64,000 nt of DNA, taken from the NCBI GenBank assembly GCA_965205505.1, contig CBDBHB010000009.1, forward strand, positions 1,792,001-1,856,000. The letters run 5' to 3'. The position numbers and the translations under genes are program-made. The notes below the pieces were generated by a model. It did not search any database. It worked only from the letters and a program-made list of their open reading frames with translations, and was not told the origin of the DNA. Shown here in pieces: positions 26,116 through 40,126 of the stretch (position 1 is its first letter; each line of letters opens with the position of its first letter). Source of the stretch: Acidobacteriota bacterium. Its GTDB lineage: Bacteria; Acidobacteriota; UBA890; WLXD01.

Positions 26116-26218
26116 ACCTTCCAACTGGCCCCAACTCACCGTGACCTGCCCGCCAATAATCGGGCCAGTTTGAGAGTTAGGAATTGAGGCTCTCAGGAAG
26201 GCTCGGGAAGGGGGAGAA

Positions 26219-26497
26219 ATGGCCCGGAAGCGATACACGGTAGAGCAGATCATCGCCAAGCTCAGGGAGGCAGAGATCGAGCTGGCGCAAGGAGCCAAGA
26301 CGCCGGAAGCGTGCCGGAAGCTGGGCATCAGCGAGAACACGTAGTACCGGTGGCGTAAGGAGTACGGCGGGCTGAGGGTGGATCAGGCACGGCGACTCAA
26401 GGAGCTGGAGCGCGAGAACGGGCGGCTCAAGAAGCTGCTGGCGGAAACGATGCTCGACAACGCCATCCTCAAAGAGGTGTCGTCGGGAAACTTCTGA
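26219..26497 (+). pseudogene. IS3 transposase orfA with an internal TAG
   Basis: MARKRYTVEQIIAKLREAE...GISENT*YRWRKEYGG, TAG at 26342-26344; slippery GGGAAAC at 26485-26491. Confidence 0.9.
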
Positions 26498-26520
26498 GCC
26501 CGGCGCGCCGGAGCCGGGCA

Positions 26521-27378
26521 GTGCGACACGCACAGCAGTCGCAGGGGGTGTCGGAGAGGCGAGCCTGCCGAGTGCTGGGCCAGGTGCGCTCGACGCAGCA
26601 ATATCGGCCCAAGGCGCCTGGAGACGAAACACCGCTGGTGAAGCGAATGACCGAACTGGCGACGCAGTACGGACGCTACGGGTACCGTCGGATCACGGCT
26701 CTGATGGAACGCGAAGGGTGGCGGGTGAACCACAAGAGGATCGAACGGTTATGGCGTCGTGAAGGACTGAAGGTACCGAAAAAGCAGCCCAAGCGCGGAC
26801 GCTTGTGGCTCAACGATGGATCGTGCGTGCGGCTGAGGCCGGAAAGGAAAGATCACGTGTGGGCCTATGACTTCGTGCACGAACGAACTCACGACGGGCG
26901 AGCGGTTCGTCTGCTGACGATCGTGGATGAGTACACCAGGGAGTGCTTGGCCATCGATGTGGCGCGCAGGCTCAACTCCGAGAACGTGTTGGATCGACTC
27001 GCTGAGCTGTTCGTGAACCGTGGTGTTTCCGACCACATCCGCTCCGACAACGGACCGGAGTTCACTTCTCGGGTAGTGCGTGGCTGGCTCGAGCGGGTCG
27101 GTGTGAAGACGTTGTTCATCGAGCCCGGCTCGCCGTGGGAAAATGGCTATGTGGAGAGCTTCAACGGCAAGCTACGCGACGAGCTGCTGAACGGGGAGAT
27201 CTTCTACACGCTCAAGGAGGCGCAGAGCTTGGTGCAAGCCTGGCGCCGCAAATACAACCAGGTGCGGCCACACAGCTCGTTGGGCTATCGGCCGCCTGCA
27301 CCGAAAGCGACGTTGTTGCAGCCGGCTACGCTCCGCTCCGCCGGCTGCAACAACCTCTTGCCAGCACCGATTCTATGA
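26521..27378 (+). CDS. IS3 transposase orfB (DDE/rve)
   Basis: YGYRRI, WAYDF, IRSDNGPEF, PGSPWENGYVESFNG, RPHSSLGY. Confidence 0.95.
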   Translation: MRHAQQSQGVSERRACRVLGQVRSTQQYRPKAPGDETPLVKRMTELATQYGRYGYRRITALMEREGWRVNHKRIERLWRREGLKVPKKQPKRGRLWLNDGSCVRLRPERKDHVWAYDFVHERTHDGRAVRLLTIVDEYTRECLAIDVARRLNSENVLDRLAELFVNRGVSDHIRSDNGPEFTSRVVRGWLERVGVKTLFIEPGSPWENGYVESFNGKLRDELLNGEIFYTLKEAQSLVQAWRRKYNQVRPHSSLGYRPPAPKATLLQPATLRSAGCNNLLPAPIL

Positions 27379-27412
27379 GTTACGAAGTGGCCTCAACACT
27401 TGGGGCAGGTCA

Positions 27413-35966: not shown

Positions 35967-37550
35967 ATGTCAGAACAAGCTACTTCAACGTATTGTGCCG
36001 ACGGTGAGAGCCTCACATCACTGGCAGAACAACCCAAACAACTAAAATATTGCGTGAATGGTGAGTGGCTTACATCCAGCACTGAGACTTATATGGACTG
36101 CTACAACCCATCCACGGGCGAGATCATTGCTCAGGCTCCACAATGCACAGCAGAAGAAGTGAACTCAGCAGTCGCAGCAGCCAAGGCCGCTTATCCGGGA
36201 TGGTCTAATACCCCTGTGGTGCGACGTGTTCAGATCTTGTTCAAACTCAAGACACTACTCGAACAACATCTGGATGGGTTGACTGAGATACTCGCCCGAG
36301 AAATGGGAAAGGCTTGGGAAGAAGCAAAGGGAGACATCTTAAAAGTAATTGAAGTCGTCGACTTTTCCTGTGGTATGCCGCATCTCATGAAAGGGGAATC
36401 CCTGATGGATTGCAGCACGGATTATGATACGACTATGTATCATCATCCAGTTGGTGTTTTTGCTGGAATCGCCCCCTGGAATTTTCCCGCAATGATCCCC
36501 CAGGGTTGGATGGCTCCGATTTGTATCGCCGCGGGAAATTGTTTCGTACTGAAAGCCGCTAGCTTTGTTCCTCAAACATCAATGCGAATCACGGAACTAT
36601 GGTATGAGGCCGGGCTCCCCAAAGGCGTTTTGAACGTAGTAACCACCAGCCGGAATGAAGCGGAACTGCTACTCGAGCATCCTGATATCGCTGGTGTTAC
36701 TTTTGTGGGCTCAACCAAAGTCGGCCAGCATATTTACTCGACCGCCGCCGCGAATGGCAAACGGGTTCAAGCTCTGACTGAAGCCAAGAACCACGCCCTG
36801 GTCTTGGAAGACTGTGTCCTGGAAAGGACAGCCAGGGGAATTGTCAACGCGTTCTGCGGGTGTGCCGGCCAACGGTGCATGGCGCTTCCGGTTGTTTGTG
36901 TTGAAGAGAGTATTGCCGACAGGTTGGTTGAATCTCTGGTGCGACTCTCCTCCGAATTAACATTGGGACCGGCCTATGAACGAAGCACTGGCGTTGGACC
37001 GGTAGTGAACAAGGGCCATTTGAAATACGTCACTGATTGGATTCAAACGGGTGTTGACGAAGGGGCTACACTCGTTCTTGATGGCCGCAACCCTGACGTG
37101 CCGGGTTATGACAGTGGCTTTTATGTTGGACCAACCATCTTTGATCACGTGACCGAAGATATGACGGTTGGGCGGGATGAAGTCTTCGGGCCTGTTATCT
37201 GCGTAAAACGCATCCAAGACTTTGAAGAAGGCCTGGCCATTATGAACAACAGTGAGTTTGCCAATGGTTCGTCGATCTATACTCAAAGCGGCTATTACGC
37301 CCGTGAGTTTTCCAAACGAACTCATGGTGGCATGGTTGGTGTGAACGTTGGTATTCCAGTCCCTCTGGGAATCTTTGGTTTCACCGGACAGAAGAAATCA
37401 TTCTTTGGTGATTTACATACCATGGGAAAGGACGGTGTGAGGTTCTTTACCGAACTAAAGTGTGTCACCACTACCTGGTTTACGGAAGACATGGGATCGG
37501 ACAAGGTCAATACCTGGGACGGAACCATCGATGTTGGGTCGAACGACTGA
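35967..37550 (+). CDS. mmsA: CoA-acylating (methyl)malonate-semialdehyde dehydrogenase (MmsA/IolA), AT-richer than the host
   Basis: IAPWNFPAMIP, FVGST, AKNH, FCGCAGQRCMA, EVFGPV, GMVGVNVGIPVP, KKSFFGDLH; GGAGG RBS. Confidence 0.93.
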   Translation: MSEQATSTYCADGESLTSLAEQPKQLKYCVNGEWLTSSTETYMDCYNPSTGEIIAQAPQCTAEEVNSAVAAAKAAYPGWSNTPVVRRVQILFKLKTLLEQHLDGLTEILAREMGKAWEEAKGDILKVIEVVDFSCGMPHLMKGESLMDCSTDYDTTMYHHPVGVFAGIAPWNFPAMIPQGWMAPICIAAGNCFVLKAASFVPQTSMRITELWYEAGLPKGVLNVVTTSRNEAELLLEHPDIAGVTFVGSTKVGQHIYSTAAANGKRVQALTEAKNHALVLEDCVLERTARGIVNAFCGCAGQRCMALPVVCVEESIADRLVESLVRLSSELTLGPAYERSTGVGPVVNKGHLKYVTDWIQTGVDEGATLVLDGRNPDVPGYDSGFYVGPTIFDHVTEDMTVGRDEVFGPVICVKRIQDFEEGLAIMNNSEFANGSSIYTQSGYYAREFSKRTHGGMVGVNVGIPVPLGIFGFTGQKKSFFGDLHTMGKDGVRFFTELKCVTTTWFTEDMGSDKVNTWDGTIDVGSND

Positions 37551-37701
37551 GCTCCTAATATTTGGCGTTTGTCAGGTAATCTCGTTTCGTTGACGTTTCA
37601 TACATGCTGCAGCAGCAATACGACCGGCAGGTTTGACGCTGCGCGGTACGTGAGGACGGATCGGTAGAGCCCTCAGCTGCATGGGTATCTCTTTCTACGG
37701 T

Positions 37702-38292
37702 CCTCTCGAGGAGGGAGCTTCCATCGTCACGGACGGCCGCGGCCTGAGTGTTCCGGGTTGCGAAGGAGGCTTGTTCGTCGGCCCGACATTGTTCGATCAC
37801 GTCAAGCCTCCGATGCGAATCTATCGCGAGGAGATCTTCGGCCCAGTGCTGGCGATTGGGGCCATTTGCGGCGTTGGCCTTCCTCGACGATGGCTAGGGC
37901 ATCGCCAGTGTCAGGCCGCCTTGCATCTGGCCCCAACTCGCCGTAACCAGACCCACCACACTTTCACCACGGCCTGCTAGCACTTCACCGATGCCATCGA
38001 GCTGGTCAACAACAACGAATTCGCAAACGGAACCGCGATCTTCACGAACGATGGCGGCGCTGCCTGGCGCTTTCAGCAAGAGATTCAGGTGGGTATGGTG
38101 GGCATCAACGTGCCGATACCCGTACCGATGGCCTATCACTCGTTCGGTGGGTAGAAGAGCTCGCTGTTCGGCGCGTGTTCGATCTACGGTCCAGAAGGTG
38201 TGCACTTCTACACGCGACCGAAGGTCGTGACGACCCGCTGGGCCGACTCGTCTCAGCGCGGCGTCGATCTGGGCTTCCCACGCTCGCACTAG
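37702..38292 (+). pseudogene. C-terminal fragment of the GC-rich mmsA paralog, interrupted by a MITE half
   Basis: [29 protein letters not shown] | [54 protein letters not shown]; stop at 38152-38154. Confidence 0.88.
37851..37976. mobile_element. MITE family 1, half copy C
   Basis: Near-identical to the reverse complement of the left half of copy B (41204 onward); ends in the TIR followed by CTAG (37977-37980). Confidence 0.88.
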
Positions 38293-38389
38293 ATGAGATG
38301 AGAAGGCCAACCTCCTGAACGCAGTAGCCTGACGGCTCTGCAAACGTTTCTTCAAACGTAACGGGCTCGAAGCCCAAGGAGGTTGGCCG

Positions 38390-39436
38390 ATGACAAGTGT
38401 AACGATTGGACTGGACGTAAGCGACCGGTACAGCCGTATGTGCGTGCTCGACAGTAAGGGCAGGGTGATGGAGGAAGGGCGGGTGAGGACGAGCCCGGAG
38501 GGGCTGGCGAGGCGGTTCGGGTGCGAGGAGCCCGCTCGAGTAGTGCTGGAGGTTGGAACGCACTCGCCGTGGATGAGTGAGCAGTTGAAGCAACTGGGTC
38601 ATGAGGTGCTGGTGGCTAACCCGAGGCGGCTGAAGCTGATCTATGGCGAGCACGACAAGACCGACCGGTTGGATGCCGAGCACCTGGCACGAGTGGGCAG
38701 AATGGACCCAAAGCTGCTTAAGACGGTGCAGCATCGAGGCAGACAAGCGCGAGCGGATCTAGCCGTGATTCGGAGCCGAGATGCTCTGGTAAAGAGCCGC
38801 ACGCAGTTGGTGAGCCATGTGCGTGGTGCGGTCAAGTCGGCCGGTTGTCGTATTCCCAGGTGCTCGACGCCGGCGTTCGCGCGCACCGCGCCAGAGCACA
38901 TACCGGAGCGGCTCAAGGGAGCGCTCGAGCCGGTGCTTGAAACGATCGCCATGCTGACGGGCAACATCCAGCAATACGAGCGTCAGATCGCGCAGCTGTG
39001 CCAGGGGCGATACCCGGAGACACAGCAGCTCCAGCAAGTGGCCGGGGTCGGAGCTCTGACCGCACTGGCGTATGTGCTGACGCTCGAGGAGCCGGAACGG
39101 TTCAATACCTCCAGAGCCGTGGGCCCGTACCTGGGACTGAGACCGAAGAAACGGCAGTCGGGGGACAAGGACCCTGCGCTACGAATAACCAAGGCGGGCG
39201 ACAAAATGCTCCGACGCCTGTTGGTGGGCTCGGCGCATTACATCCTGGGCCCCTTCGGGCCCGATACTGAGCTCAGACGCTGGGGGCTCAAGCTGGCCGG
39301 ACGCGGTGGTCCTCATGGCAACAAAAAGGCAGCAGTTGCTGTCGCCCGTAAGCTCGCCGTTGTGCTGCACCGACTGTGGCTGAGTGGAGACGAGTACGAA
39401 CCGTTGCGCGCACCTGTAGAGGTTTCAGCAGCATGA
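38390..39436 (+). CDS. IS110/IS1111 DEDD transposase (recombinase)
   Basis: IGLDVS, VVLEVG, KTDRLDA (D-E-D-D), GVG, YLGLRP..RQSG (catalytic Ser), AVARKL; intact frame. Confidence 0.96.
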   Translation: MTSVTIGLDVSDRYSRMCVLDSKGRVMEEGRVRTSPEGLARRFGCEEPARVVLEVGTHSPWMSEQLKQLGHEVLVANPRRLKLIYGEHDKTDRLDAEHLARVGRMDPKLLKTVQHRGRQARADLAVIRSRDALVKSRTQLVSHVRGAVKSAGCRIPRCSTPAFARTAPEHIPERLKGALEPVLETIAMLTGNIQQYERQIAQLCQGRYPETQQLQQVAGVGALTALAYVLTLEEPERFNTSRAVGPYLGLRPKKRQSGDKDPALRITKAGDKMLRRLLVGSAHYILGPFGPDTELRRWGLKLAGRGGPHGNKKAAVAVARKLAVVLHRLWLSGDEYEPLRAPVEVSAA

Positions 39437-39682
39437 ACTAACCCGCAACCAGGAGGTCGGTAGGGCGACGCGACCCAACGGTTATCGATCTGACCGCCCG
39501 GTCCGGGCGACTGCGAAGGTCACTACGAGCTTCGAGCTCGGCAGCTAGATTGCAGCGCCTCGAATCGGGACGGACCCCAGAATGCACCGGACGACCTGAA
39601 TCCTCGTCCACCAGAGTGCGAATAGGAGCATGGCGTGCAGATCGATTCTTCGCTGGGCACCACATTGCCCTTGACCGAACTA
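39437..39682 (+). ncRNA. Putative bridge/seekRNA of the IS1111 element
   Basis: Structured 3' non-coding region with two internal loops whose guide-like segments match the insertion target and the circle junction (see findings). Boundaries are approximate. Confidence 0.72.
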
Positions 39683-39698
39683 GGCCTTCTCATAGAAG

Positions 39699-39996
39699 TG
39701 GCCTGTAACAGATGATCGTTGCATATCGCAGATGGGATTTGCGGGCGCCTTGGATCTGCGCCCTTGGCGACGTAACCAGACCCATCACACTTCCATCACG
39801 GCCTGCTGGACATCGTCCAGGAGCCGCAACGCCGATATCGCCCGCAACTGCCCATCTGTCCGGAGGATGGGGGCGAACTGGGCCCGTCTGCGGCGTTGCT
39901 CCTCCTCCAAGATGGGCAAACATCGTCTCGTCGGAGCGCCTGACATCCGGGCCCATTTCGCCACCACGATAGGCAACGATCATCTGTTACAGGCCA
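39699..39996. mobile_element. MITE family 2, with a nested family-1 end at 39748-39809
   Basis: TIR TGGCCTGTAACAGATGATCGTTGC / GCAACGATCATCTGTTACAGGCCA; right CTAG at 39997-40000; the left CTAG is restored when the IS is removed. Confidence 0.88.
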
Positions 39997-40126
39997 CTAG
40001 AGCCGCGAAGCAAGGGGAACGAGCCGATGACTTGCTCGGTACCTGGTGAGCGACGCGAGCGGGGATTAGGGTACAGGGAACGACTGCCAAACAACGTTCG
40101 GGAAACCAATCCGGAGGTGAAACCAG

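What the first reader, a model, noticed from the sequence alone, without database searches (positions are those of the whole stretch)
38281..39722. IS1111 element whose bridge/seekRNA appears programmed to target a MITE terminus
Seen in sequence: excising 38291-39696 gives CGCACT+AGTGGCCTGTAACAG, which restores the CTAG and TIR of the family-2 MITE and mirrors its other end (CTGTTACAGGCCA-CTAG). The 3' non-coding region has a stem (GGCG-A-CTGC...GCAG-CGCC) enclosing AGGTCACTA (39517-39525), a hairpin CGAGC-TTCGA-GCTCG, and CTAG (39545-39548). AGGTCACTA equals the bottom strand of the target (AGGCCACTA) with one U.G wobble, and CTAG is the target core. A second loop has CTCGTC (39603-39608), a CAC-CAGA-GTG hairpin and ATAGGAG (39622-39628), matching the circle junction ATAGAAG/GATGAG with wobbles. 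Established: IS110/IS1111 recombinases use a non-coding RNA with target- and donor-binding loops. Inference: this element is guided to the ends of another multicopy mobile element, a spreading safe harbour, and its target specificity can be read directly.
Basis: partly seen in the sequence, partly recalled or inferred. Interest (0 to 1): 0.85.

Follow-up and report, generated by a model that had tools for sequence, protein, structure and literature searches.

The report
RNA-guided IS1111 element targeting MITE ends
This is an ordinary but very clear member of the IS1111 group of RNA-guided insertion sequences, whose own guide RNA directs about 30 copies to the ends of a small parasitic repeat (MITE) in the same genome.

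Summary
Window 38291-39696 is a 1406-bp IS1111-type element: a 348-aa DEDD transposase, 11-bp subterminal inverted repeats, 7-bp left and 3-bp right extensions, and a 260-bp 3' non-coding region. The genome holds 27 full-length and a few partial copies. Of 29 left junctions, 27 end in CT. Of 31 right junctions, 30 start AGTGGCCT and one starts AGTGACCT. 27 of the 31 lie at the end of IS630-type MITEs. In 80 metagenome relatives (48-71% identical transposase), the ~10 nt after a conserved GACUGCG track the right flank, and the 4-5 nt before a conserved AGAUUGCAG track the left flank (0 of 10000 permutations each). So 39517-39525 and 39543-39548 are real target guides. ATAGGAG (39622-39628) is a real donor guide. 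CCCA at 39576-39579 is the better candidate for that guide. Within the genome, CTAGTGGCCT sites are 30 occupied to 109 empty, while the sister-MITE end CTAGTGTCCT is 0 to 87. This fits the U in the guide. The biology is known: seekRNA/bridge RNA, and IS4321/IS5075 targeting transposon ends. This is a new member of a known kind, of moderate interest.

The parts
38291..39696 (+). Whole IS1111-type insertion sequence (1406 bp)
   Evidence: 27 full-length copies plus partial ones at 98.7-100% identity. Contig depth is ~187-220 inside against ~8 outside, with breaks at 38289 and 39697.
38289..38290 (+). Left target half-site CT (the T is the left half of the MITE's split TA duplication)
   Evidence: 27 of 29 left junctions end in CT. 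The empty orthologous site in G004 reads CTAG once.
38291..38297 (+). 7-bp left terminal extension AGATGAG. Its first two bases, AG, are the core shared with the target.
   Evidence: The 7 bp left / 3 bp right rule is from PMC11187229 (Introduction).
38298..38308 (+). Left subterminal inverted repeat ATGAGAAGGCC
   Evidence: Perfect inverted repeat with 39683-39693. The same sTIR recurs in the metagenome homologs that have both ends.
38390..39436 (+). tnp, a 348-aa DEDD (RuvC-like) transposase/recombinase
   Evidence: Pfam PF01548 (1.1e-17) and PF02371 (5.5e-17). NCBIfam NF033542 'IS110 family RNA-guided transposase', 206.9 bits against a cut-off of 140. Contains the GL-P----SG motif GLRPKKRQSG at aa 249-258.
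39484..39646 (+). Predicted bridge/seekRNA, closed by stem 39484-39492 / 39638-39646
   Evidence: Covariance model R1 scores 144.5 bits here and matches 77 loci. The structure is 71.8% paired against 62.0% in shuffles (0 of 500), and all 9 closing-stem pairs show two-sided changes.
39504..39516 (+). 5' strand of the stem closing the target-binding loop (CGGGCG-A-CUGCGA). It pairs with 39550-39562.
   Evidence: helix 4: 82.8% paired, 7 pairs with two-sided changes, CUGC/GCAG invariant.
39517..39525 (+). Target guide complementary to the top strand (RTG-like): AGGUCACUA pairs with T-AG-TGGCCT, with one U:G wobble
   Evidence: In homologs the ~10 nt after GACUGCG match the reverse complement of the right flank. 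Own mean match is 5.96 against 2.91 for others, 0 of 10000 permutations. Invariant in 31 copies.
39526..39540 (+). Hairpin inside the target-binding loop (CGAGCU-UCG-AGCUCG)
   Evidence: Helix 5 is 72.7% paired with GC/AU/CG/UA exchanges.
39543..39548 (+). Target guide identical to the top strand (LTG-like): AGCU + AG core. [quoted passage not shown]
   Evidence: The 5 nt before the conserved AG-AUUGCAG equal the left flank in homologs: own mean 4.04 of 5 against 1.17, 0 of 10000 permutations. In this genome only CT is strict, and A at -4 is enriched in occupied sites (10 of 27 against 12 of 109, p=0.0025).
39576..39579 (+). Candidate donor guide (RDG-like) CCCA, opposite TGAG of the left extension with one C-A mismatch
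   Evidence: Its second base covaries with the left extension across 43 unique homolog pairs: C with G 16, T with A 14, C with A 5, T with G 3. Fisher p=0.0008, not corrected for relatedness. This is the weakest of the four guides.
39583..39620 (+). Donor arm: stem UGCACC (39583-39588) / G-GUGCG (39614-39620) enclosing hairpin GGACGA (39589-39594) / UCGUCC (39604-39609).
   Evidence: The stem is near-invariant with a few compensatory changes. A hairpin of 5 bp or more occurs at this place in 56 of 63 homologs, with many different arm sequences.
39622..39628 (+). Donor guide (LDG-like) AUAGGAG, equal to the IS right end plus core ATAGA-AG with one G:T wobble
   Evidence: The guide equals the element's own right end plus AG at 7 of 7 positions in 40 of 45 homologs. 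It changes with it (ATGGAAG 33, ATAGAAG 6, ATGGCAG 1).
39671..39676 (+). TTGACC, a conserved -35-like hexamer that could form a junction promoter after circularisation (inference)
   Evidence: TGAC[AGT] is conserved at this place in 14 of 15 aligned homologs. The junction-promoter concept is from passages of PMC12288879. Not tested here.
39683..39696 (+). Right sTIR GGCCTTCTCAT plus the 3-bp extension AGA
   Evidence: 8 of 31 copies carry T instead of A at 39692.
39697..39704 (+). Right target half-site AGTGGCCT (AG core, then the first bases of the MITE inverted repeat)
   Evidence: 30 of 31 right junctions. The remaining one is AGTGACCT.
39698..39997 (.). IS630-type MITE (300 bp) with inverted repeats GTGGCCTGTAACAG..., flanked by a TA duplication inside CTAG
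   Evidence: 19 near full-length and many partial copies. The empty site in G004 has a single CTAG. A related autonomous element has a DDE_3 transposase and ends GTGTCCTGAGTCAG.

Best explanation
Window 38291-39696 is one of about 30 copies of an IS1111-group insertion sequence. Its DEDD recombinase is guided by an RNA of about 160 nt made from the 3' non-coding region (39484-39646). One internal loop of that RNA reads the target on both strands. [quoted passage not shown] A second set of single-stranded segments reads the element's own joined ends: AUAGGAG (39622-39628) and probably CCCA (39576-39579). Recombination at the shared AG dinucleotide places the element, always in one orientation, between the T and the A of the TA duplication that flanks IS630-type MITEs ending GTGGCCT. 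What is shown: element anatomy, copy number, junctions, guide-flank covariation in relatives, and single-base discrimination among MITE families. What is inferred from the published family mechanism: the RNA is made and bound by the transposase, a circle intermediate forms, and MITE ends act as a harmless landing site that allowed the copy number to rise.
For: Family features are met (criteria read in PMC11187229).

Junctions: 27 of 29 left flanks end in CT. 30 of 31 right flanks start AGTGGCCT. There are 28 distinct left flanks, and 27 of 31 right flanks are MITE-end-like.

Relatives: 80 metagenome loci were retrieved, and 61 had both sTIRs by the first rule, each with its own flanks and nearly all with AG at the right junction. 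On 23 non-redundant targets, guide-flank matching beat every one of 10000 permutations for both target guides. The donor guide equals the right end in 40 of 45.

Structure: the model matches 77 loci and is supported against shuffles (0 of 500) and slid controls.

In-genome specificity: CTAGTGGCCT is 30 occupied and 109 empty, CTAGTGTCCT 0 and 87 (Fisher p=2e-7), CTAGTGACCT 1 and 2. This is as expected for a guide U that pairs with G or A but not T.

Order of guides: the top-strand complement lies 5' of the bottom-strand complement, as published for IS1111 seekRNAs.

Empty orthologous site: a same-genus genome has a single CTAG where this genome has CT-IS-AG-MITE-CT-AG.
Against: Nothing here shows directly that the RNA exists or binds the protein. 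RNA-library contigs cover the region, but such contigs can come from DNA. No circle-junction contig was seen. Rfam has no matching family, and model R1 did not match the one ISEc11 locus tried. Homology of this RNA to the tested seekRNAs therefore rests on architecture only. In this single sequence the 9-nt match is only modestly beyond chance (140 of 5000 shuffles). Left-flank pairing beyond CT is weak in this genome: positions -3 and -4 vary. The CCCA donor guide has a C-A mismatch with this element's own end, and its covariation test is not corrected for relatedness. 17 of the 27 full-length copies have a broken transposase frame.
Confidence: 0.9

Rival explanations
1. The association with MITE ends is incidental rather than a programmed safe harbour. 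The guide happens to match a 10-12-nt word, and that word is common only because a MITE family carries it. Copy number reflects target supply, not selection for harmless sites.
For: 4 of 31 occupied sites are not MITE-end-like but still carry AGTGGCCT or AGTGACCT. The word, not the MITE, is therefore what is read. Relatives target many unrelated words.
Against: 27 of 31 occupied sites are MITE ends. The family as a whole shows retargeting, so a guide matching a multicopy word would be favoured. The data cannot separate selection from supply.
Confidence: 0.3
2. The conserved AGTGGCCT belongs to the element itself (true right end further right, or an IS-plus-MITE composite), so there is no sequence-specific target.
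For: The conserved sequence always lies on the same side of the IS, and 13 of 31 right flanks have an inverted copy of the end within 330 nt.
Against: The sequence after AGTGGCCT diverges into several MITE families and non-MITE DNA, with 23 distinct 45-nt right flanks. 109 CTAGTGGCCT sites exist without the IS. Relatives share the sTIR and extensions but have unrelated flanks. The 7/3-bp extension rule places the end at 39696.
Confidence: 0.03
3. Target choice is made by the transposase protein alone, and the matches in the 3' region are coincidental.
For: In this one sequence a 9-nt match with one wobble arises in 2.8% of shuffles.
Against: Guide-flank covariation at fixed structural positions across 23 non-redundant relatives (0 of 10000 permutations). 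Published experiments on family members, read in PMC11187229 sections 9 and 10.
Confidence: 0.02

Closest known systems
IS1111-family seekRNA elements (ISEc11, ISPa11, ISKpn4, ISPst6; Siddiquee et al. 2024, PMC11187229)
   Same: DEDD transposase of 330-350 aa, 11-13-bp sTIR, 7/3-bp extensions and a downstream NCR. The RNA carries a top-strand complement 5' of a bottom-strand complement, and the two overlap at the insertion point. Insertion is orientation-specific without duplication.
   Different: The transposase is only about 28% identical to the ISEc11 family transposase by tblastn. Model R1 does not match the ISEc11 locus. The target is the end of an IS630-type MITE, not a REP, an attC site or a short linear site. 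The RNA here is predicted, not shown.
IS4321/IS5075 (IS1111 family; Partridge and Hall 2003; title seen only in reference lists; the paper is not held)
   Same: An IS1111-family element that targets the terminal inverted repeat of another transposable element.
   Different: [quoted passage not shown] This one sits at the TA duplication/inverted-repeat boundary of a chromosomal non-coding MITE with about 140 available sites. Details of the earlier work are recalled, not read.
IS621 bridge RNA (IS110 group; Durrant et al. 2024, PMC11208160)
   Same: Two sets of guides for target and donor, each reading both strands and overlapping at a core dinucleotide. The RNA is about 150-250 nt and works with a single recombinase.
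   Different: [quoted passage not shown] Here the RNA lies in the right end, the order of strands is reversed, the core is AG, and the donor guides flank a stem at a three-way junction rather than sitting in a simple second stem-loop.
ISPpu9 / REP-targeting IS110 elements (PMC12288879; Tobes and Pareja 2006, title only)
   Same: Insertion into a multicopy genomic repeat at an invariant AG dinucleotide (passages), and non-autonomous derivatives that share the ends.
   Different: ISPpu9 is of the IS110 group, without sTIR, and targets REP palindromes, not the end of a transposase-mobilised MITE.

Membership tests
IS1111 group of the IS110 family | DEDD (RuvC-like) N-terminal domain plus PF02371 C-terminal domain, 330-350 aa | tested here: met
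   PF01548 at 1.1e-17 and PF02371 at 5.5e-17. NF033542 at 206.9 bits, cut-off 140. 348 aa.
IS1111 group of the IS110 family | Subterminal inverted repeats of about 11-13 bp | tested here: met
   ATGAGAAGGCC / GGCCTTCTCAT, 11 bp and perfect. The same sTIR is in the homologs with both ends.
IS1111 group of the IS110 family | Asymmetric terminal extensions, 7 bp left and 3 bp right | tested here: met
   AGATGAG and AGA. With these ends the flanks of 31 junctions align on CT|AGTGGCCT.
IS1111 group of the IS110 family | Longer non-coding region downstream of tnp | tested here: met
   260 bp downstream (39437-39696) against 99 bp upstream (38291-38389).
IS1111 group of the IS110 family | GL-P----S(T)G motif in the C-terminal domain | tested here: met
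   GLRPKKRQSG at aa 249-258. G249, L250 and G258 are invariant; P252 and S257 are at least 90% conserved among 39 relatives.
IS1111 group of the IS110 family | Site- and orientation-specific insertion without target duplication | tested here: met
   31 junctions share one target in one orientation, and only the AG shared by element and target recurs.
IS1111 group of the IS110 family | Circular intermediate with abutted ends and a junction promoter | not testable with these tools
   No circle-junction contig in the 4 runs laid, all of them contigs. Only a conserved -35-like TTGACC was seen.
seekRNA / bridge RNA | NCR segments complementary to both strands of the target, overlapping at the insertion point, with the top-strand complement first in IS1111 elements | tested here: met
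   39517-39525 and 39543-39548. Covariation in 23 non-redundant relatives, 0 of 10000 permutations each.
seekRNA / bridge RNA | Segments complementary to the element's own ends (donor guides) | tested here: met
The right-end guide matches 7 of 7 in 40 of 45 relatives and co-varies. The left-end guide is supported more weakly.
seekRNA / bridge RNA | RNA is transcribed, processed and bound by the transposase, and is needed for transposition | not testable with these tools
   RNA-library contigs cover the region but are not proof of transcription.
seekRNA / bridge RNA | Match to a curated RNA family | tested here: not met
   No Rfam family matched credibly, even at E-values up to 10. Whether Rfam 15 holds a bridge RNA family is not known to me.
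IS630-derived MITE (the target) | Short non-coding element with terminal inverted repeats, many copies, and a TA duplication in a CTAG target | tested here: met
   300 bp, with ends GTGGCCTGTAACAG inverted. 19 near full-length copies. The empty site in G004 has a single CTAG. The CTAG/TA preference of IS630 is recalled.
IS630-derived MITE (the target) | An autonomous partner with the same ends | tested here: inconclusive
   One 1185-bp element encodes a DDE_3 + HTH transposase and ends GTGTCCTGAGTCAG, similar but not identical. No partner with GTGGCCTGTAACAG ends was found by the pair search.

The most novel reading that the evidence does not exclude
The element is a specialised 'parasite of a parasite'. 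Through a single guide base (a U that accepts G or A) it discriminates between two sister IS630-type MITE families, with 30 of 139 sites occupied against 0 of 87. It lands exactly inside the TA duplication that the MITE creates. Much of its spread is by non-autonomous copies: 12 of 27 full-length copies at different loci share the same 4-nt frameshift deletion yet keep intact ends and guide RNA. This implies mobilisation in trans by the 10 intact copies.
Probability: 0.5. Interest if true: 0.55.

Novelty: new member of a known kind. Interest (0 to 1): 0.42.

Why it matters
It is a clean natural example in which an RNA-guided insertion sequence's target can be read from its own RNA and then checked against about 30 insertions and about 200 unused near-matches in one genome. 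It gives natural data on mismatch tolerance. A G:U or A:U pair is accepted at one guide position and T is rejected. Only 2 nt of the left flank are strict. The roughly 77 relatives with a shared scaffold and different guides form a natural reprogramming series for an uncharacterised clade of IS1111 bridge RNAs with an AG core. That series may be useful to people engineering these recombinases. It also adds MITE ends to the list of repeats used as landing sites (REP, attC, transposon ends). It does not change the understanding of the mechanism.

Tried and rejected
Rfam scan of 38000-40000 at E-values up to 10 gave only two chance-level lncRNA matches.

The genome-contig scan with the single protein gave one distant locus (43% identity, L031). 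The 40 nearest genomes gave only one useful relative (G011, 63-68% identical, split in two pieces). The metagenome scan with an alignment was needed.

The MAFFT alignment A2 misaligned the variable hairpins, so pair counts on it were weak for those helices. A covariance model and per-sequence folding were used instead. The model-fitted alignment leans towards the model's structure.

I also looked at the 4-6-nt tail after that hairpin as a possible guide (some relatives have CTCATC there). By eye, from the outputs, it does not follow the variant left extensions (AGATGAA, AGATAAA, AGATTAG, AGATAAG), whereas the CCCA position does.

Reads: all four runs were contigs. No circle junction and no empty site at this locus were seen. 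Parts without cover mean nothing.

The ISEc11 locus (L144) was read to compare the RNA. I saw no shared primary-sequence motif and R1 did not match it. No conclusion is drawn beyond 'divergent'.

The repeat ...TTACGA|AGTGGCCTCAACACTT... (11 copies) was suspected to be a second IS aimed at the same word. It is simply the end of an IS3-family element that contains the word internally.

Supplements of papers were not opened. The supplementary figures of PMC11187229 (seekRNA folds) and Supplementary Table 5 of PMC11208160 (per-IS bridge RNA predictions) might already include close relatives of this element. Two literature searches bear on prior reports of IS110/IS1111 insertion at MITE ends. Neither listed such a report among the papers shown, so 'not in print' is not established.
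Full report
WHAT IS THERE

Window 38291-39696 is a 1406-bp element. Its one long ORF (38390-39436, + strand, 348 aa) carries the two Pfam domains of IS110-family transposases (PF01548 at 1.1e-17, PF02371 at 5.5e-17). It passes NCBIfam NF033542, 'IS110 family RNA-guided transposase' (206.9 bits, cut-off 140).

The ends show the anatomy that Siddiquee et al. give for the IS1111 family (PMC11187229; Introduction and the section on family features read):
- an 11-bp perfect subterminal inverted repeat (ATGAGAAGGCC 38298-38308, GGCCTTCTCAT 39683-39693);
- a 7-bp extension on the left (AGATGAG);
- a 3-bp extension on the right (AGA);
- the long non-coding region (260 bp) downstream of tnp.

The C-terminal GL-P----SG motif is present as GLRPKKRQSG (aa 249-258). 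Rfam has no matching RNA family.

COPIES AND JUNCTIONS

The assembly that holds the window (5.98 Mb, 9 contigs, 64% G+C) contains 33 BLAST pieces of the element at 94.9-100% identity. The 27 full-length copies are at least 98.7% identical.
- 27 of 29 left junctions end in CT. One of the other two reflects an extra AGATG repeat.
- 30 of 31 right junctions begin AGTGGCCT, and the remaining one begins AGTGACCT.
- There are 28 distinct 45-nt left flanks among the 29, so these are independent insertions.
- 27 of 31 right flanks continue as a MITE-end-like sequence (AGTGGCCTG-TAACAG, -TAGCAG or -AGTCAG). 4 do not.

Public contigs laid on the region show a depth of about 187-220 inside the IS against about 8 in the left flank. 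Diverse loose ends appear at 38288/38289 and 39697, which are the same boundaries.

THE TARGET REPEAT

The repeat to the right of the IS is a 300-bp non-coding element (39698-39997) with inverted ends GTGGCCTGTAACAG. It has 19 near full-length copies and many partial ones.

A genome of the same genus that lacks the IS (0 matches) has the orthologous locus with a single CTAG. This genome reads CT-[IS]-AG-[repeat]-CT-AG at that place. The repeat therefore duplicated TA inside CTAG. From recall, that is the behaviour of IS630-family elements.

One 1185-bp element in the genome has similar ends (GTGTCCTGAGTCAG) and encodes a DDE_3 plus helix-turn-helix transposase. The IS lies between the T and the A of the left TA duplication.

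THE GUIDE RNA: COVARIATION IN RELATIVES

The transposase has thousands of relatives in metagenomes. The best 120 listed are mostly 59-93% identical, plus the window's own protein cluster and three truncated forms at 99%. A scan of metagenome contigs with an alignment of 39 of them returned 80 loci at 48-71% identity. 61 elements (60 fetched loci and the window's own copy) had both sTIRs by my first rule. A few of those right ends were mis-picked and were re-derived. The sTIR and extensions are almost the same in these loci, but the flanks all differ. The right flank nearly always starts with AG.

Aligning the non-coding regions shows a fixed scaffold:
GACUGCG - about 10 variable nt - hairpin - 4-6 variable nt - AGAUUGCAGCGCC.

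The first variable block is the reverse complement of that element's right flank. Examples: flank AGCACTCCAG with block CTGGAGTGCT, and flank AGCTGCGCC with block GGCGCAGCT. The second variable block equals the last 4-5 nt of that element's left flank.

On 23 non-redundant targets:
- The longest exact match between the first block and the element's own right flank (core excluded) averaged 5.96 nt, against 2.91 for other elements' flanks.
- The second block matched the element's own left flank at 4.04 of 5 positions, against 1.17.
- Neither value was reached in 10000 permutations of the pairing.

In the window these blocks are AGGUCACUA (39517-39525) and AGCU+AG (39543-39548). Their order, with the top-strand complement first, is the one published for IS1111 seekRNAs. 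[quoted passage not shown]

DONOR SIDE

After a second conserved block (GAGUGCG-A) comes a 7-mer that equals the element's own right end plus AG in 40 of 45 relatives. It changes with that end: ATGGAAG 33, ATAGAAG 6, ATGGCAG 1. In the window it is AUAGGAG (39622-39628) against ATAGA-AG, with one G:T wobble.

The stretch between GCACC and GAGUGCG folds into a hairpin of 5 bp or more in 56 of 63 relatives, with many different arm sequences. In the window TCGTCC (39604-39609) is the 3' arm pairing with GGACGA (39589-39594).

A better candidate for the guide that reads the left end is CCCA (39576-39579), just upstream of the UGCACC stem. Across 43 unique pairs its second base follows the left extension: C with G 16, T with A 14, C with A 5, T with G 3. 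Fisher p=0.0008, not corrected for relatedness. Rare extensions are mirrored (TGAA with TTCA, TAAG with CTTA, TTAG with CTGA). In the window it has one C-A mismatch, so this assignment is the weakest.

STRUCTURE

A covariance model was built from 25 sequences with my hand-drawn structure. It matched 77 loci, once each, and the window at 144.5 bits.

On the resulting alignment:
- 71.8% of cells pair, against 62.0% in shuffles (0 of 500).
- 36 of 47 pairs show two-sided changes.
- Slid controls pair at 36-42%.

That alignment is fitted to the model and so leans towards it. The closing stem (39484-39492 with 39638-39646) has two-sided changes in all 9 pairs. The RNA is thus predicted to span about 39484-39646. 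It has a target arm (stems, internal loop with the two target guides, inner hairpin) and a donor arm whose guides flank the UGCACC/GUGCG stem.

SPECIFICITY WITHIN THE GENOME

Site counts:

| Site | Occupied | Empty |
|---|---|---|
| CTAGTGGCCT | 30 | 109 |
| CTAGTGTCCT (end of the sister MITE/IS630 family) | 0 | 87 |
| CTAGTGACCT | 1 | 2 |

The difference between the first two rows gives Fisher p=2e-7. No other single-base variant of the right half-site is occupied. The variable base lies opposite the guide's U, which can pair with G or A but not T.

On the left only CT is strict. A at -4 matches the guide and is enriched in occupied sites: 10 of 27 against 12 of 109, p=0.0025. The commonest empty context, CACT (41 of 109), is occupied once in 27, and that one is the window's copy. 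The guide segments are invariant in all 31 copies that include the 3' region, and one copy has a change inside 39622-39628.

HOW STRONG IS THE SINGLE-SEQUENCE OBSERVATION?

A 9-nt pairing with at most one wobble to the 14-nt site arises in 140 of 5000 dinucleotide shuffles of the NCR. With free wobbles it arises in 755 of 5000. The junction series and the relatives make it so.

STATE OF THE COPIES

Of the 27 full-length copies:
- 10 keep the 348-aa frame.
- 12 share the same 4-nt deletion (38655-38658).
- 5 share a 1-nt deletion at 38799; one of these also carries the 4-nt deletion.
- One further copy, with other indels, also has a broken frame, which makes 17 broken copies in all.

The shared deletion at different loci suggests that defective copies were mobilised in trans. 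Gene conversion or assembly error in the 1-nt case cannot be excluded.

WHAT IS NOT SHOWN

Transcription, processing and protein binding of the RNA are not shown. Neither are the circle intermediate and the junction promoter. Only a conserved -35-like TTGACC at 39671-39676 was seen. RNA-library contigs cover the IS but may derive from DNA.

COMPARISON WITH WHAT IS KNOWN, AND VERDICT

RNA-guided target choice by IS1111 and IS110 elements is established (PMC11187229; PMC11208160, passages). [quoted passage not shown] The last of these is known to me only from a title in reference lists, because the paper is not held. ISPpu9 recombines at an AG dinucleotide, as this element does.

This transposase is only 37% or less identical to any plasmid-borne family member, and about 28% identical to the ISEc11 family transposase. 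Its RNA scaffold is not recognised by Rfam.

My two literature searches listed no report of an IS110/IS1111 element aimed at MITE ends among the papers shown. That is not proof that none exists.

I file it as a new member of a known kind. It is correct, instructive, useful as natural specificity data, and not surprising to a specialist.

Noticed in passing
window 38655-38658 and 38799 (positions in the IS); copies listed: 12 of 27 full-length IS copies at different loci share one 4-nt deletion that breaks tnp, and 5 share a 1-nt deletion. All keep their ends and guide RNA. This suggests non-autonomous copies mobilised in trans.
   Followed up: partly
window 26142-27412: A 1271-bp IS3-family element (NF033516, 2.4e-71) with about 10 copies in the genome. 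Its right end contains AGTGGCCT internally, preceded by GA rather than CT, and is not used by the IS1111 element.
   Followed up: yes
window 37851-37980: A repeat of about 130 bp with more than 80 matches in this genome and many in three same-genus genomes. The orthologous locus in G004 lacks window ~37709-38079, which includes this repeat.
   Followed up: no
L142 (G000:C9:2198453-2199637): An apparently autonomous 1185-bp IS630-family element (381-aa DDE_3 + HTH transposase) flanked by CTAG, with ends GTGTCCTGAGTCAG. It is a likely relative of the transposase that moves the MITEs. The 87 empty CTAGTGTCCT sites are never hit by the IS1111 element.
   Followed up: partly
G000:C6:423090 and C6:513833: Two IS copies share the same 45-nt left flank but have different right flanks. 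Right-flank DNA beyond the MITE is shared between C6:424769 and C7:9643. These look like rearrangements or duplications mediated by IS copies.
   Followed up: no
G011:C1:3908161-3908607 and 3911298-3911885 (L039, L033): The closest relative in a named-rank neighbour genome (63-68% identical) is split into two pieces about 2.7 kb apart, as if something is inserted in it. Its guide block (ACGGACTCT) still matches its own right flank.
   Followed up: no
window 37681-37980: By eye only, the ORF here begins like the C-terminal part of an aldehyde dehydrogenase, similar to the intact 527-aa ORF at 35967-37550, and runs into the 130-bp repeat. It may be a gene remnant.
   Followed up: no
genome-wide: Many MITE ends abut head to head around one shared CTAG (for example ...CAGGCCACT|AGTGGCCTG...). 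MITEs therefore often insert into the CTAG created at the end of an earlier MITE. These palindromic sites are rarely occupied by the IS (1 of 27 occupied sites, against 41 of 109 empty sites).
   Followed up: partly
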